A program made the position numbers and the translations under genes. Shown here piece after piece: positions 24,463-47,062 of a stretch of 64,000 nucleotides of DNA; position 1 is the stretch's first letter; every line of letters starts with the position of its first letter. This DNA comes from Nitrosopumilus sp. Lineage in GTDB: Archaea; Thermoproteota; Nitrososphaeria; Nitrososphaerales; Nitrosopumilaceae. The notes under the pieces are model-generated. The model was not told the origin of the DNA and did not search any database. It worked only from the letters and a program-made list of their open reading frames with translations. The stretch lies in NCBI GenBank assembly GCA_965203315.1, contig CBDBCE010000004.1, positions 192,001-256,000 of the forward strand, given 5' to 3'.

Positions 24463-24713
24463 TGGTTCTTTTAACTTGTTGGGGGTATTTGAAATTTAGG
24501 AGATCTCTTGGAAATTTACTGTCGATGGCAATCTCATAAACGATTCACAAAAAATTACATATTATTAAACAATTCATCTTGAATTATGTAAATTTTCGAT
24601 ATTTGGAGCATAAATCATGTATTTTTTAGTTTTTATCATGATAATTTTACTAGGAGTATAATTTCATGAACGCTCCCAAATTCCAAATATCCTCCGATAA
24701 GTTAAAAGAACCC
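24463..24713. repeat. MITE with ~40-bp imperfect TIRs (GGGTTCTTTTAACTT family)
   Basis: GGTTCTTTTAACTTGTTGGGGGTATTTGAAATTTAGGAG vs rc of CTCCCAAATTCCAAATATCCTCCGATAAGTTAAAAGAACCC; same termini at 44837/46356. Confidence 0.8.
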
Positions 24714-43550: not shown

Positions 43551-44603
43551 CTATCCTGTTCTTACTCTTGGATCAAAGTAGCCGTACAATATATCTGCGA
43601 TAAATACACTGATCAGAAAAAAGACCGTAAGAATGTACGTTGCCCCAATTATTACTGGCAAGTCTAGTACAGATATTGCTTCAAAGTAGAGTCTTCCCAT
43701 TCCTGGCCAATCAAATACTGCTTCTGTGATTATTGCGCCTCCTAGTGAACCTGATAGGCTTAGCGCTAGAATCGTTACTATTGGCGGCGCTGCATTCTTT
43801 AGTGCATGTGTGTAAATTATTCTGCGTTGTTTGATGCCGATCGTTCTCTTTGCAGCAATGTAATCTTCACTCATTATTCCTATCATAAAGTTTCTTACCA
43901 AGTATGCCCACGAACCGAATCCGATCATTACTATTGTGATCAGCGGCAGTGTCATGTGGTATAGTAACGACAGATAGTATTCTGGATCTGATGGTGGAAT
44001 ATCTGGTGTGGCTCTTGCCGGAAATATCTGGTACATAAATGCAAATACAAAGATCATCAACATTCCTATCCACCATACTGGAAAACTAGAACTGATTACG
44101 GCAAACGATGATACCACTCTATCTAGTGCTGAGCCTGCTTTACTACTTGCAAGTGCACCAAGAAATATTCCAATTATCGATATGATTATCGTTGCAGTTG
44201 TAAACAACAGTATGGTTCGTGGCATCTTTTCAAATATGATATCTTTTACATCCGTAGAGCCTGTATCACTTGTAAGAAACGTTGCATGTCCAAAATCTAA
44301 TATCAGTATCTTGTACATGGTGACACCTATACGTTGTGGTGCATACCAAGGTTCATCAAGACCTAGATCGCTTGAGCGTTGATCGATTATAGATTGAACG
44401 AATGTCTCAAACTCTTCAACCGTATTAAAGCTCTCTGCAATGGATGGATCTTGGGCCATCTCGGCACGAACCTGAAATACGATACTCTGTTTTAGAATTG
44501 TATCCATGTTGGAACCGATCAGTGATATTGTGATTAGGAGTGTCGCTATCAACACAACAAACATTGTTGCTGAGCGAGTTGCTACATATCGTTTTATGCC
44601 CAA
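43551..44603 (-). CDS. Peptide/nickel ABC transporter permease (DppB/OppB-like)
   Basis: GLDEP, DFG, HALKNA, GAIITEAVFDWPGMG, DILYGYFDPRVR. Confidence 0.92.
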   Translation of the reverse strand: MGIKRYVATRSATMFVVLIATLLITISLIGSNMDTILKQSIVFQVRAEMAQDPSIAESFNTVEEFETFVQSIIDQRSSDLGLDEPWYAPQRIGVTMYKILILDFGHATFLTSDTGSTDVKDIIFEKMPRTILLFTTATIIISIIGIFLGALASSKAGSALDRVVSSFAVISSSFPVWWIGMLMIFVFAFMYQIFPARATPDIPPSDPEYYLSLLYHMTLPLITIVMIGFGSWAYLVRNFMIGIMSEDYIAAKRTIGIKQRRIIYTHALKNAAPPIVTILALSLSGSLGGAIITEAVFDWPGMGRLYFEAISVLDLPVIIGATYILTVFFLISVFIADILYGYFDPRVRTG

Positions 44604-44739
44604 TCTAGATTTGTGTCATTGTGATAATATTAGACAGTTTCTATATTGTTGAATGATCGTGTTTTAGACTCTGTATGGTGCGTAAAGTGTTCATGAATAT
44701 GTCGACTAGGTTGATCTAGTAAACAGTCACTTGTATTGT

Positions 44740-44806
44740 AGACTATATGCGTATTTCTTACATCATACTCACGTTTAAGGTATAATAAAACACAAGTGTA
44801 ATTTCT
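44740..44806 (+). repeat. Truncated 141-bp-family MITE
   Basis: AGACTATATGCGTATT...GTGTAATTTCT, then breaks at the IS66 left end. Confidence 0.75.
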
Positions 44807-45009
44807 GTAAGCGGTTAGCCTGACAACGATCTTGTGGGGTTCTTTTAACTTAATGGGGGGTTAAGATTAAGTTGTAGGTATTTCGAGAAACGCACGGTAT
44901 GCAACTTAAAACAGCAATAATCTACAATGGGTGATCTAACCATTTTTCATGACTTGTAAAATTTTGAGAGAATGTTGCGTGAAAACTATCGACCCCCCCG
45001 TTAAGTTAA

Positions 45010-46348
45010 CCATATGTGAAGAAGTCGATCAGAGTACATTCAGATGATACAAAGCATGCAGGTCGATCCAAGCGATCATCTGTAAAGCGATCTAAAAGAG
45101 GAAATGCAAACAAACAGATTACCCATCCAAAAAGTAAAAACAAGATGATCTATATCGGAATAGATGCACATAAGAGATTTCTGCAAATTGCAGCAATGGA
45201 TCAGGATGGCAAGCGTCTACTCAATGAGCGTGTTGCCACAGATCATGACAGTCTAAAAAAATTCTTTGCGCAGTTTACACCACTCAATACACGTTGTGTG
45301 ATGGAGTCATCGTCAGTATGGTATTGGTTGTATAGATACTTGACAGATGAATTGGGATTTGGTGTAGTGTTATCGAATCCATATCAAACAAAGGCTATTG
45401 CAGAATCAAAGAAAAAGACAGACAAGGTGGATGCATGGACACTGGCAGATCTTTTAAGAGGAAATTATATCTCGCCTTGTTTTGTTCCTAGTGAATACAT
45501 TGTTAAATTGAAACAGTTGGTTCGACATAGAGATATAATTGTAAAAGGAAGAACGCGATACAAGAATCTTATACATGGGATATTACTGCAATATGGAATT
45601 AAAATACCTGGTTCAAGTTTTAGCAAGTCATTTAGAGAGGAATTGAAGAAACTCGAGGATTATAGAATAGATAACTATTTGGACATGATAAACCTCTCTG
45701 ACGAAAAGATTCGACAGTTGGATATTAAAATGCATAAAGAAGTAAAGAGATCACATGATGCGCAGTTGTTAAAGACAATTCCGGGAGTTGGAAACTTTGT
45801 TGCACTTGTTGTAATATCCAGCATTGGAGATGTCAAGAGATTCCCAAATGTACGCAAAATGTGTTCGTATGCAGGAATAGTGCCGTCTGTTCGCAATTCA
45901 GCTGGTAAACAAAATCACGGACGTATAACGAGGAAAGGTGATAAAATACTTAGATGGGCATTGACCGAAGCAGTTCATGTACACATAAAATGTGAACCCC
46001 ATAGCTACATTACAAAATTTTATACTAGAATTAAAAAGAGACGCGTGACAAGCAAGGCAACTGTTGCAACTGCCTCCAAGCTACTCCGATTGATGTACCA
46101 TATGCTTATAGATAGGGATGATTATGTCACACATTGTAGTCGAAATCATTAACGTACGGGTTCTGTTTGAGATATCACTCGGCAAGTTAAATGTACAGAT
46201 TTTGACGAATGGACGAAGAATGATACTGAGTTAACCACTCGAATGGATATATGTTCGCAGTCCTTTACATGGGAACACATCCCTAGCGTAAGCTATACAC
46301 AATAGTCGTGAATCAGAGTAAATCTTTATAAGCTATTCACATGGATAA
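45010..46348 (+). mobile_element. IS110-family (IS1111-like) element
   Basis: TAA core on both sides (45007-45009, 46346-46348); sub-terminal IR CCATATGTGAA / TTCACATGG; ~190-bp 3' non-coding region. Confidence 0.88.
45145..46152 (+). CDS. IS110-family DEDD recombinase
   Basis: YIGIDAH, VMES, KTDKVDA, TIPGVG, YAGIVPSVRNSAG, GRITRKG; ATG 45145 preferred over 45016. Confidence 0.95.
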   Translation: MIYIGIDAHKRFLQIAAMDQDGKRLLNERVATDHDSLKKFFAQFTPLNTRCVMESSSVWYWLYRYLTDELGFGVVLSNPYQTKAIAESKKKTDKVDAWTLADLLRGNYISPCFVPSEYIVKLKQLVRHRDIIVKGRTRYKNLIHGILLQYGIKIPGSSFSKSFREELKKLEDYRIDNYLDMINLSDEKIRQLDIKMHKEVKRSHDAQLLKTIPGVGNFVALVVISSIGDVKRFPNVRKMCSYAGIVPSVRNSAGKQNHGRITRKGDKILRWALTEAVHVHIKCEPHSYITKFYTRIKKRRVTSKATVATASKLLRLMYHMLIDRDDYVTHCSRNH

Positions 46349-46356
46349 AAGAACCC

Positions 46357-46623
46357 AACGAAGCTTGTCGTAAATTCGGAGTTCATTTAGCTAATGCTGC
46401 AGATGATCTATACACGTTTGTGCTATACTATGGTATGGAATACACAAACAACAGAGCAGAGCGCGCTATACGACCAATGGTACTATTCCGCAAGGTAACT
46501 CAACGTATCGTATCTGAGGAGAGTAAAAGACGAGTTGGCAATATCTTTACATGTGTAACAACATGGGAGCAACAAGGTCTCAACGTCTATGATACACTCC
46601 TAAAAGTTGTGCATGAGACCTAA
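46357..46623 (+). pseudogene. IS66 transposase C-terminal fragment
   Basis: LYTFV...TNNRAERAIRPMVLFRKV...TWEQQGLN. Confidence 0.8.
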
Positions 46624-46807
46624 CCTCATACAAAAAATCCATCCAACGTAAATCGAAAAGATCCGTATGAAACGCAGGAAAAAGCGATCTTTAGTACGTA
46701 ACATGTATAACACAAAGGGTGTAGAAGGGTCTAGAACACCTTCTACTAAGTTGTTAAGTACAACTTGTCGCCAATAGATACTAATAGATGTAGTTATATT
46801 AATTTTT

Positions 46808-46894
46808 GGGCATGTGCCAGAGCACGGTTAAATGGGACTTGTCGCCAACAAGTTGTTAAGTACTTCGTGGGTTCGAATCCCACCATGCCCACCA
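46808..46894 (+). tRNA. Atypical class II tRNA: Leu-like body, anticodon loop TC-GCC-AA, encoded CCA
   Basis: Acceptor GGGCATG/CATGCCC-A-CCA, D-loop with GG, anticodon stem ACTTG/CAAGT, 13-nt variable region, T-arm GTGGG-TTCGAAT-CCCAC. Confidence 0.8.
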
Positions 46895-46923
46895 AATATT
46901 CTGATTCACGTTCAGACGTCTCA

Positions 46924-47062
46924 AGACTGTATGCGTATTTCTTACATCATACTCACGTTTTAAGGTACAATAAAACACAAGCGTAATTTCTAGAGTCAAA
47001 TTGATTCATTGCTGTCATCTTTGATGTTGGTGTGGGCATTCTTAATAATATGCATACAGTCT
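46924..47062 (+). repeat. 141-bp-family MITE
   Basis: AGACTGTATGCGTATT...AATATGCATACAGTCT. Confidence 0.85.

What the first reader, a model, noticed from the sequence alone, without database searches (positions are those of the whole stretch)
45001..46356. Archaeal IS110/IS1111-like element that targets a MITE terminal repeat, with a candidate guide RNA
Seen: the IS sits inside the MITE right TIR. The empty site AAGT-TAA-AAGAACCC is identical to the uninterrupted TIR at 24699-24713. The TAA core is on both sides, and the predicted circle junction is TTCACATGGA-TAA-CCATATGTGAA. The ~190-nt 3' non-coding region contains GGGTTCT (46158-64, bottom strand of the right target half), AAGTTAA (46184-90, top strand of the left half plus core) and ATGGATA (46243-49, left donor half), among stems such as TATCACTC/GAATGATA and ATGTTC/GAACA. 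Established: IS110-family recombinases use a bridge/seekRNA from the non-coding end, downstream of the CDS in IS1111 members, and some target TIRs of other transposons. Inference: an RNA-guided hyperparasite programmed against a multicopy TIR. Individual 7-mers can occur by chance.
Basis: partly seen in the sequence, partly recalled or inferred. Interest (0 to 1): 0.75.

Follow-up and report, generated by a model that had tools for sequence, protein, structure and literature searches.

The report
Archaeal RNA-guided insertion sequence hitting transposon ends
This is an IS1111-type jumping gene in an ammonia-oxidising archaeon that carries its own guide RNA gene, and sister copies in the same genome show the guide re-written to hit the ends of two different resident transposons; it is a clear example of a mechanism already described in bacteria.

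Summary
Window 45009-46345 (+) is a 1,337-bp IS110-family element of the IS1111 type. It sits between two TA dinucleotides inside the right terminal repeat of a MITE.

The 3' non-coding region encodes a bridge/seekRNA-like RNA at 46154-46263, with a target-binding loop and a donor-binding loop.

**Guide evidence**
- The genome holds four subfamilies: A (3 identical copies), B (6 copies, 93%), C and D.
- Their two target-loop segments change together with their flanks.
- 8 of the 11 A-versus-B differences in the 3' NCR fall in the 11 guide positions.
- A covariance model finds the same RNA right after the transposase gene in distant Nitrosopumilaceae and Archaeoglobi relatives. Guides match their own flanks far more often than other elements' flanks.
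- Donor guides covary with the element's own ends.

**Targets**
- A targets an IS6-family/MITE terminal repeat: 45 empty sites and 3 filled.
- B targets an IS66-family terminal repeat.
- D sits inside an IS5-like transposase gene.

- The core is TA, not TAA.
- The proposed stems are not the conserved ones.

No RNA data were available. This is a new member of a known kind. One feature is unexplained: a co-evolving look-alike of the right-donor guide in the left end.

The parts
44838..45008 (.). MITE, left part. The left terminal repeat GGTTCTTTTAACTT starts at 44838. The interior runs up to the first 6 nt (AAGT+TA) of the split right terminal repeat.
   Evidence: The left flank of the IS matches 13 or more other MITE copies up to the junction.
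45007..45008 (+). Left copy of the TA core.
   Evidence: The D empty site shows a 2-nt core.
45009..46345 (+). IS1111-type insertion sequence, subfamily A, 1,337 bp.
   Evidence: Three copies are 100% identical over 1,335 nt, each in a different copy of the same target.
45009..45013 (+). Right-donor sequence ACCAT, the first 5 nt of the left end. It is paired by the right-donor guide with one mismatch at position +2.
   Evidence: Relatives were compared by hand.
45014..45020 (+). Left subterminal inverted repeat ATGTGAA.
   Evidence: Read directly. It is the reverse complement of 46336-46342.
45041..45050 (+). Left-end internal look-alike of the donor loop (CAGATGATAC). It is a same-sense copy of 46219-46226 and is complementary to left-end positions 1-8. 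Its role is unexplained.
45104..45123 (+). Block ATGCAAACAAACAGATTACC in the 5' non-coding region, conserved across relatives. Its function is unknown.
45145..46152 (+). DEDD recombinase/transposase gene, 335 aa. Candidate catalytic residues are D7, E54, D93, D96 and S252.
   Evidence: Relatives align from residue 1-3 of this start.
46154..46196 (+). Target-binding loop module: outer stem 46154-46157 with 46193-46196, and inner hairpin 46169-46180.
   Evidence: Each helix has a compensatory change.
46160..46166 (+). Right-target guide GTTCTGT. It is complementary to the 7 nt after the core (AAAGAAC), matching 6 of 7.
46184..46190 (+). Left-target guide AAGT + TA + A. It has the same sense as the left flank plus core plus the first base of the element.
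46211..46263 (+). Donor-binding loop module: outer stem 46211-46214 with 46260-46263, and inner hairpin 46228-46240.
46220..46224 (+). Right-donor guide ATGAT, which pairs with left-end positions 1-5.
   Evidence: and by hand.
46243..46249 (+). Left-donor guide ATGGA + TA, the same sense as the last 5 nt of the element plus the core.
   Evidence: The guide 7-mer is found at the right end in 22 of 23 rows.
46325..46331 (+). Conserved A/T box TTTATAA, centred about 17 nt before the last base. It is a candidate archaeal TATA box reading out of the right end.
   Evidence: The promoter function is inferred.
46336..46342 (+). Right subterminal inverted repeat TTCACAT.
46346..46355 (.). Right copy of the TA core (46346-46347) followed by the last 8 nt of the MITE right terminal repeat (AAAGAACC).
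24464..24712 (.). A second MITE of the same terminal-repeat family in the window, with an unoccupied target at 24699-24712.

Best explanation
Window 45009-46345 is an active-looking IS1111-type member of the IS110 family in an ammonia-oxidising archaeon.

**Components**
- It encodes a 335-aa DEDD recombinase.
- Directly after the stop codon it encodes a roughly 110-nt bridge/seekRNA with two stem-internal loop-hairpin modules.

**Target module**
- The 5' side of the loop (GTTCTGT) is complementary to the top strand of the 7 nt to the right of a TA core.
- The 3' side (AAGT-TA-A) repeats the top strand to the left of the core, so it can pair with the bottom strand.

**Donor module**
- The 5' side (AUGAU) pairs with the first 5 nt of the element.
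- The 3' side (AUGGA-UA) repeats its last 5 nt plus the core.

**Inferred cycle**
1. The element excises as a circle whose junction reads TTCACATGGA-TA-ACCATATG.
2. A TATA-like box 17 nt from the right end then reads across the junction into the recombinase gene and the RNA.
3. The recombinase-RNA complex recombines the junction with the site AAGT-TA-AAAGAAC.

That site is the tip of the terminal repeat of an IS6-family element and its MITEs, present about 48 times in the genome.

**What is shown and what is inferred**
- Shown here: the anatomy, the copy census, and guide-target and guide-donor covariation.
- Inferred: that the RNA is made, that it binds the recombinase, the circle intermediate and the promoter.
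For: **Family**
- PF01548 + PF02371.
- NF033542 at 263.5 bits against a cut-off of 140.
- Alignment to the solved IS621 and ISCro4 recombinases, with the D, E, D, D and S positions kept.

**Recent mobility**
- 3 copies are 100% identical over 1,335 nt and sit in three different copies of the same site.
- All 9 A and B copies have intact 335-aa reading frames.

**Guide-target covariation within the genome**

| Subfamily | Left flank | Right flank | Left guide | Right guide (reverse complement) |
|---|---|---|---|---|
| A | AAGT-TA | AAAGAAC | AAGTTA | ACAGAAC |
| B | GACC-TA | ATATCTT | GACCTA | ATATCTT |
| C | AAAA-TA | TTTTCGA | AAAATA | TATTCGA |
| D | TCAC-TA | GAATTAC | TCACTA | GAATTAC, shifted by 1 nt |

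- A and B differ at 95 of 1,337 positions. Of the 11 differences in the 193-nt 3' NCR, 8 lie in the 11 guide positions (hypergeometric P about 6e-10).

**Structure**
- 15 hand-drawn pairs in 4 helices are paired in 75 of 75 cells, against 26-44% when the partner is slid.
- Each helix has one compensatory change.

**Conservation of the RNA**
- Model R1 hits 24 places in 49 relatives' loci, directly 3' of the recombinase gene, with E-values down to 5.8e-12, although the proteins are 52% identical or less.
- It hits 10 of 120 other genomes of the same family.

**Guide-flank matches across elements**
- The left-guide 7-mer sits exactly at the left junction in 9 distinct relatives.
- Own versus other elements' guides: 17 of 27 against 1 of 459 for the left guide, and 17 of 32 against 2 of 544 for the right guide.
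- A second genome, G019 (16 copies, two guide types), shows the same pattern.

**Donor covariation**
- The left-donor guide equals the right end in 22 of 23 rows, in three states: ATGGA-TA, ATAGA-TA and ATGGG-AG.
- The right-donor guide pairs with the left end as ACCAT/AUGGU, ACCGT/ACGGU and ACTAT/AUAGU.
- Two more pairs, ATCAT/AUGAU and ATTAC/GUGAU, were read by hand.

**Agreement with the literature**
- The order 'top-strand match 5' of bottom-strand match', the NCR downstream of the gene, and co-transcription from the junction promoter are as described for IS1111-type seekRNAs (PMC11187229, sections read).
- The same features fit IS1111 bridge RNAs in the right end (PMC11208160, passages read).
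Against: - No RNA evidence of any kind was obtained, so the ends, processing and existence of the RNA are inferred.
- Rfam 15 has no matching family.
- The single-sequence fold of the 3' NCR is no more stable than shuffles (z = +0.55). RNAalifold on five sequences did not find the target module on its own. The structure was drawn by hand from these same sequences, which favours it in the slide control.
- Matches are not perfect.
  - Copy B4 matches its guides poorly (left 1, right 3 of 7).
  - D needs a 1-nt shift.
  - Several relatives (L027, L030, L034, L031) match the right guide at only 3 to 5 of 7, even with shifts.
  - The L023-L026 family matches the left guide only by 1-2 nt.
- The window's own right-target and right-donor guides each carry a mismatch at position +2.
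- Many of the compared elements are related, so cell counts overstate the number of independent events.
- D1 has ACG in place of the start codon.
Confidence: 0.88

Rival explanations
1. Target choice is made by the protein alone, for example by recognising the terminal repeat as DNA. On this reading the short matches in the 3' non-coding region are scars or chance, not guides.
For: - Individual 7-mers are short.
- No RNA was observed.
- Some copies match their supposed guides poorly: B4, L027, L030 and L034.
Against: - Matches to an element's own flanks far exceed matches to other elements' guides: 17 of 27 against 1 of 459, and 17 of 32 against 2 of 544.
- A and B recombinases are 92-93% identical, yet their targets are unrelated. 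8 of 11 NCR differences lie in the guide positions.
- The segments sit in internal loops between stems that keep pairing through compensatory changes.
- The same layout is experimentally established for IS1111-type elements (PMC11187229).
Confidence: 0.04
2. The element is a fossil. The RNA gene and guides are real in origin, but the copies in this genome no longer move.
For: - No expression or circle data are available.
- Contig data from other runs gave no junction.
- D1 lacks an ATG, and eight fragments of the family lie in the genome.
Against: - Three A copies are identical over 1,335 nt at three different sites.
- All nine A and B copies have intact reading frames.
- The catalytic residues are kept.
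- 45 empty targets remain.
Confidence: 0.08

Closest known systems
IS1111-type insertion sequences with a seekRNA: ISEc11, ISPa11, ISKpn4, ISPst6 (Siddiquee et al. 2024, PMC11187229; sections 6, 9, 13 and 14 read)
   Same: - DEDD transposase of about 335-340 aa.
- The long non-coding region lies downstream of the gene.
- Subterminal inverted repeats are present.
- The RNA segment complementary to the top strand lies 5' of the segment complementary to the bottom strand.
- Natural re-programming occurs among close relatives.
- The RNA is expected to be co-transcribed with the transposase from the circle junction.
   Different: - The host is archaeal (an ammonia oxidiser).
- The subterminal repeat is only 7 bp.
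- The 5' non-coding region is also long (136 nt) and holds a look-alike of the donor loop.
- The candidate junction promoter is an archaeal-type A/T box lying wholly in the right end.
- Nothing has been tested at the bench.
IS621 / IS110-group bridge RNA (Durrant et al. 2024, PMC11208160, passages read; Hiraizumi et al. 2026, PMC13626964, abstract read)
   Same: - A two-module RNA: a target-binding loop and a donor-binding loop, each with a left and a right guide around a 2-nt core.
- The recombinase aligns to the solved IS621 structure sequence (E = 5e-11).
   Different: - The RNA lies in the right end, not the left end.
- The order of guides within each loop is reversed.
- The core is TA. 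The IS621 core of CT is recalled, not checked here.
- The protein is only distantly related.
IS4321/IS5075 (Partridge and Hall 2003; only the title was seen, in reference lists)
   Same: IS1111-family members that insert at a fixed position in the terminal inverted repeats of other transposons.
   Different: - They are bacterial and target Tn21-family repeats.
- Here the targets are IS6-family/MITE repeats and IS66-family repeats, in an archaeon.
IS1111 of Coxiella burnetii inserting into QMITE2 (PMC5896051, abstract and passages read)
   Same: - An IS1111-family element whose copies sit in a MITE: 20 of 21 copies in that paper.
- Unoccupied MITE copies are left elsewhere in the genome.
   Different: - In Coxiella the target is a palindrome inside the MITE.
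- Here the target is the tip of the terminal repeat, shared with the full-length IS6-like parent.
ISHvo10 and other archaeal IS110-family entries (named in PMC11187229 section 6; 662 archaeal IS110 recombinases counted in bioRxiv 10.1101/2024.06.21.599552, passages read)
   Same: - The host is archaeal.
- ISHvo10 is said to have long non-coding regions both upstream and downstream, as this element does.
   Different: I saw no description of guide-target pairs for an archaeal element in the papers I read.

Membership tests
IS110 family (DEDD recombinase insertion sequences) | The protein has the DEDD_Tnp_IS110 and Transposase_20 domains and passes the curated family model. | tested here: met
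   - PF01548 at 100.5 bits and PF02371 at 85.4 bits.
- NF033542 at 263.5 bits against a cut-off of 140.
IS110 family (DEDD recombinase insertion sequences) | The catalytic D, E, D, D residues and the C-terminal serine are present. | tested here: met
   - D7, E54, D93, D96 and S252 align with identical residues of the IS621 and ISCro4 chains.
- That these are the catalytic positions of IS621 is recalled.
IS110 family (DEDD recombinase insertion sequences) | Site-specific insertion flanked by a short repeated core, without long terminal inverted repeats. | tested here: met
   - A TA core lies on both sides.
- 3 of 3 A copies are in the same site.
IS1111 subgroup | The longer non-coding region and the RNA lie downstream of the transposase gene. 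| tested here: met
   - The 3' NCR is 193 nt and the 5' NCR is 136 nt.
- The RNA model matches start at the stop codon.
IS1111 subgroup | Subterminal inverted repeats of 7-17 bp. | tested here: met
   ATGTGAA (45014-45020) and TTCACAT (46336-46342). The repeat is 7 bp, lies 5 nt and 3 nt from the ends, and is at the lower limit of the range.
IS1111 subgroup | The segment matching the top strand lies 5' of the segment matching the bottom strand. | tested here: met
   - Right-target guide at 46160-46166 and left-target guide at 46184-46190.
- The criterion is taken from PMC11187229.
IS1111 subgroup | The transposase groups with IS1111 transposases in a tree and has the GL-P----S(T)G motif. | tested here: inconclusive
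   - No reference IS1111 proteins were at hand, so no tree was built.
- The motif here reads G-I-V-P-S-V-R-N-S-A, which is close but not exact.
Bridge RNA / seekRNA | Two internal loops, each with a left and a right guide, that covary with target and donor. | tested here: met
Bridge RNA / seekRNA | The RNA is transcribed, binds the recombinase and is needed for transposition. | not testable with these tools
   No RNA run was available.
Bridge RNA / seekRNA | A match to a curated RNA family. | tested here: not met
   Rfam 15 gave no relevant match at E up to 10 over 44500-47000. I do not know whether Rfam holds an IS1111 bridge RNA family.
MITE derived from an IS6-family element (the target) | Short, non-coding and multicopy, with terminal inverted repeats shared with a transposase-bearing element and flanking direct repeats. 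| tested here: met
   - 45 uninterrupted repeat tips. Eight pairs lie 161-172 bp apart and three lie 1,454-1,498 bp apart.
- The 1.45-kb form encodes a 365-aa protein with DDE_Tnp_IS240. It scores 110.8 bits on the IS6 model, under the cut-off of 125.
- 8-bp direct repeats are seen at 3 copies read by eye.
- No direct repeat is seen at the window's own copy.

The most novel reading that the evidence does not exclude
The left end carries what looks like half of a second donor-binding module, a feature not described in the IS110/IS1111 papers I read.

**Layout**
- A same-sense look-alike of the right-donor guide loop lies at 45041-45050.
- A variable hairpin follows it.
- A strongly conserved block follows that, at 45104-45123.

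**Behaviour**
- The look-alike co-evolves with the real donor loop. This includes a parallel C-to-G change between subfamilies A and B, whose ends are identical.
- It can also pair with the first 8 nt of the element.

**Possible readings if it is functional**
- Part of an RNA that spans the circle junction.
- A mimic in the recombinase mRNA leader through which the recombinase regulates itself.
- A second, bottom-strand guide target.
- A living intermediate of the proposed move of the bridge RNA gene from one end of the element to the other.
Probability: 0.2. Interest if true: 0.7.

Novelty: new member of a known kind. Interest (0 to 1): 0.45.

Why it matters
- **A natural re-programming experiment.** Two subfamilies in one genome are 93% identical. 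Their guide segments, and almost nothing else in the RNA gene, have been rewritten to hit the terminal repeats of two unrelated transposon families. This supports RNA-guided targeting in an archaeal lineage and gives ready-made guide-target pairs for bench tests.
- **Mobile elements aimed at mobile elements.** All four subfamilies land in other mobile or repeated DNA. This fits the idea that these elements persist by aiming at multicopy, dispensable sites.
- **Two untested leads.** The archaeal-type A/T box at the right end and the donor-loop look-alike in the left end bear on how such elements are expressed and recognise their own ends. The seekRNA paper lists end recognition as open.

Tried and rejected
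**Rfam.** A scan of 44500-47000 at E up to 10 gave nothing relevant.

**Folding.**
- The single-sequence fold of the 3' NCR is no better than shuffles.
- RNAalifold on five sequences found the donor module but not the target module, so I drew the structure by hand.

**RNA runs.** No RNA holder is listed for this stretch.

**Contigs.** I laid contigs of four DNA runs on 44600-46800.
- Only short unitigs cover the element, with A-like and B-like letters mixed.
- No circle junction and no empty-site joint at the IS was seen. Contigs cannot show their absence.

**Right-donor guide candidates.** I first looked in TTTACATGGGAAC, TTAACCAC and the 3' side of the donor loop. I rejected these because they are not kept in C, D or the relatives. 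TTAACCA is the loop of a hairpin whose stem covaries.

**Loose patterns.** A loose pattern for left ends picked wrong places in 7 rows, and a stricter one missed 11 loci. For those I used the junctions printed and paired them by hand.

- Supplements of the papers were not opened. The predicted bridge RNAs of ISfinder entries (Durrant et al., Supplementary Table 5) may already include archaeal relatives of this element.

**Not done.**
- No tree against reference IS1111 and IS110 transposases.
- No structure prediction and no complex prediction.
Full report
**What is at the coordinates.** The sequence reads ...CCCCGTTAAGT-TA-[ACCATATGTGAAG ... ATTCACATGGA]-TA-AAAGAACCC....
- The bracketed element is window 45009-46345, 1,337 bp.
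- Its only long reading frame is 45145-46152, 335 aa from the ATG. The ORF listing extends it to a GTG at 45016, but relatives align from residue 1-3 of the ATG form.
- The protein carries PF01548 and PF02371. It passes NCBIfam NF033542, 'IS110 family RNA-guided transposase', at 263.5 bits against a cut-off of 140.
- It aligns to the solved IS621 and ISCro4 recombinases (E = 5e-11 and 9e-13). Identical residues sit at D7, E54, D93, D96 and S252. That these are the catalytic positions is recalled.

**The host.**
- The window is contig 5 of a 2.47-Mb genome, 99.98% complete.
- The genome has an archaeal AmoA gene at 387 bits. That family rings in 0 of 14 control genomes.
- It also has a full-length small-subunit rRNA match to the archaeal model. 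This is not discriminating alone, because that model rings in bacteria too.
- The nearest recombinase relatives are from Nitrosopumilaceae assemblies at 52% identity or less, then Archaeoglobi, Thermoplasmata and Bathyarchaeia.
- 'Archaeal' is therefore supported.

**Copies in the genome.** The element gives 19 matches in its own genome.

| Group | Copies | Identity to the window copy |
|---|---|---|
| A | 3 | 100% |
| B | 6 (one lacks its first 47 nt) | 93% |
| C | 1 | 71% |
| D | 1 | 67% |
| Fragments | 8 | partial |

All nine A and B copies have intact 335-aa frames. D1 has ACG where the others have ATG.

The flanks are:
- A, 3 of 3: AAGT-TA | TA-AAAGAACC.
- B: GACC-TA | TA-ATATC(T/A)TAC in most copies.
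- C: AAAA-TA | TA-TTTTCGA.
- D: TCAC-TA | TA-GAATTAC.

The D empty site written with a 2-nt core occurs 3 times with the same flanks. Written with TAA it occurs 0 times.

**Guide segments track the flanks.** In the alignment of all copies the 3' non-coding region is conserved except for two short blocks.
- Block 1 is the reverse complement of the 7 nt to the right of the core. Its reverse complement reads ACAGAAC in A, ATATCTT in B, TATTCGA in C, and GAATTAC in D with a shift of one.
- Block 2 repeats the 4-5 nt to the left of the core plus TA: AAGTTA, GACCTA, AAAATA and TCACTA.
- A and B differ at 95 of 1,337 positions. The rates are 9.6% in the 5' NCR, 7.0% in the gene and 5.7% in the 3' NCR.
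- Of the 11 differences in the 193-nt 3' NCR, 8 lie in the 11 guide positions (P about 6e-10).

**Structure.** I drew the structure by hand.
- Target module: stem 46154-46157 with 46193-46196, a 5' loop with block 1, hairpin 46169-46180, and a 3' loop with block 2.
- Donor module: stem 46211-46214 with 46260-46263, a 5' loop, hairpin 46228-46240, and a 3' loop.
- On five sequences, 75 of 75 cells are paired, against 26-44% for slid partners. Each of the four helices has one compensatory change.
- Caveat 1: the structure was derived from these same sequences.
- Caveat 2: the single-sequence fold is not more stable than shuffles.
- Caveat 3: RNAalifold found only the donor module.

**Relatives.** A covariance model of 46151-46266 was searched against other sequences.
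- It matches 24 places in the 49 relatives' loci, nearly all directly after the recombinase gene, with E-values down to 5.8e-12.
- It matches 16 places in the own genome: the 11 copies plus 5 remnants or diverged copies.
- It matches 10 of 120 other genomes sampled from the same family, in 6 of 27 genera counting the own genus. This patchy spread is typical of a mobile element.
- In 9 distinct relatives the 7-mer from the left-guide position lies exactly at the left junction, followed by the conserved CCATATGTG.

| Measure (32 insertions, 18 guide types) | Own guides | Other elements' guides |
|---|---|---|
| Left guide, 4 or more contiguous nt matched | 17 of 27 | 1 of 459 |
| Right guide, 6 or more of 7 matched in register | 17 of 32 | 2 of 544 |

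- Misses exist. They are B4, L027, L030, L034, L031 on the right side, and the L023-L026 family on the left side.
- In a further genome, G019, 16 copies fall into two guide types, each matching its own flanks. One single-base variant (AGTCTAA against ACTCTAA) is partly mirrored in the flanks.

**Donor side.**
- The 3' side of the donor loop holds ATGGA-TA, which is the last 5 nt of the element plus the core.
- Across relatives it takes three states: ATGGA-TA, ATAGA-TA and ATGGG-AG. It equals the right end in 22 of 23 rows. The remaining locus does not reach its right end.
- The 5' side holds a 5-mer, 3 nt from the loop's 3' end, that pairs with the first 5 nt of the left end.
  - ATCAT/AUGAU and ATTAC/GUGAU (one G-T pair) were read by hand.
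- In the window's element the pair is ACCAT/AUGAU, with one mismatch at position +2.
- The right-target guides of A and C are also mismatched at +2.
- So both loops are accounted for.

**What the targets are.**
- **A.** The 14-mer AAGTTAAAAGAACC occurs 45 times uninterrupted.
  - It is the tip of the repeat GGTTCTTTTAACTT. Eight pairs bound MITEs of 161-172 bp, two pairs bound elements of 234-252 bp, and three pairs bound elements of 1,454-1,498 bp.
  - The long form encodes a 365-aa DDE protein with DDE_Tnp_IS240. It scores 110.8 bits on the IS6 model, just under the cut-off.
  - About 3 of 48 sites are occupied.
- **B.**
  - Copies B3 and B1 sit in inverted orientation at the two ends of an IS66-family element. 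Its transposase is 526 aa and scores 186.8 bits on NF033517, over the cut-off.
  - That IS66-family element has itself inserted, with an 8-bp direct repeat, into an IS630-like transposase gene.
  - The B site lies 9 nt from each tip of that element's terminal repeat.
- **D.** It lies inside a 419-aa DDE_Tnp_4 (IS5-like) transposase gene present in several copies.
- **C.** It lies at the edge of a short repeat.

All four subfamilies therefore sit in other mobile or repeated DNA.

**Expression signals (inferred).**
- An A/T box (TTTATAA or TTTAAAAA and the like) is centred 16-17.5 nt before the last base. It is the longest A/T run of the last 50 nt in 18 of 22 distinct right ends. By eye it is also present at that place in the other 4.
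- An archaeal TATA box there would start transcripts about 10 nt beyond the end. In a circle that is about 8 nt into the left end, upstream of the recombinase gene and the RNA.
- This is the archaeal counterpart of the junction promoter, from which the seekRNA paper expects mRNA and RNA to be co-transcribed (PMC11187229, Discussion).
- No transcript data were available.

**Unexplained.** 45041-45050 is a same-sense copy of the donor loop's 5' side.
- 7-8 of 8 nt are identical in 10 of 16 distinct elements. Shuffled left ends reach 7 or more in 125 of 3,200 trials.
- It changes in parallel with the loop. This includes the C-to-G change at both 45050 and 46226 between A and B, whose ends are the same.
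- It can pair with left-end positions 1-8. 92% of cells are paired against 24-42% for slides, with compensatory changes at three positions.
- A variable hairpin and the conserved block 45104-45123 follow it.
- I could not tell whether this is a decoy, a mimic, a relic or a further guide target.

**Comparison and verdict.**
- The layout, the guide order and the natural re-programming match IS1111-type seekRNA/bridge RNA elements (PMC11187229; PMC11208160).
- Targeting of terminal repeats and of MITEs has bacterial precedents: IS4321/IS5075 (title only seen) and IS1111 in QMITE2 (PMC5896051).
- Archaeal IS110 recombinases are known in number, 662 in one survey.
- I did not find guide-target pairs described for a Nitrosopumilaceae element in two searches. 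Supplements that may list predicted RNAs were closed.
- The finding is real and well supported. It is a new member of a known kind, with a useful natural experiment and one unexplained left-end feature.

Noticed in passing
window 45041-45050 with 46219-46226 and 45009-45016: The left end holds a same-sense copy of the donor loop's 5' side. It co-varies with that loop across 16 distinct elements and can pair with the first 8 nt of the element. A variable hairpin and the conserved block 45104-45123 follow it.
   Followed up: partly
G000 C1:231572-236516 (loci L071, L072): Nested elements. An IS66-family element inserted, with an 8-bp direct repeat, into an IS630-like transposase gene. It carries a B-type copy in each of its two terminal repeats, in inverted orientation with right ends outward.
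   Followed up: partly
window 44777-46633: One contig each in runs X1 and X2 joins 44776 to 46634, with only 33 nt on the shorter side. The block may therefore be a nested insertion missing in some genomes: a 61-nt left piece, the MITE with its IS, and a 278-nt IS66-like tail (ORF 46420-46623, DDE_Tnp_IS66 C-terminus).
   Followed up: no
G000 C1:1216095-1217429 (copy B6): This B copy lacks its first 47 nt. The break lies at a 6-nt repeat (TACATT) shared by the flank and the element, as expected for a deletion between short repeats.
   Followed up: partly
locus L023 about 2745-2824 and locus L024 downstream of 2658: In a Nitrosopumilus relative, the right end of one copy is followed directly by the 3' part of another copy's RNA gene, starting just after its left-guide segment. 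Partial tandem repeats of the right end are also seen in L032 and L020.
   Followed up: no
window 46808-46894: A tRNA-like match (Rfam clan CL00001, 28.9 bits, below the gathering score for tmRNA) lies about 450 nt downstream of the element. It is probably a tRNA gene and was not examined.
   Followed up: no
G000 C5:139563-139676, C1:936496-936611, C1:679976-680099, C1:89962-90087, C1:812550-812664: Five further matches to the RNA model lie outside the 11 full copies. Some are next to fragments of the element, and two may belong to more diverged relatives.
   Followed up: no
G000 C1:1544176-1545510 (copy D1): The start codon of the recombinase gene reads ACG in this copy. Its RNA gene and ends are intact.
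   Followed up: no
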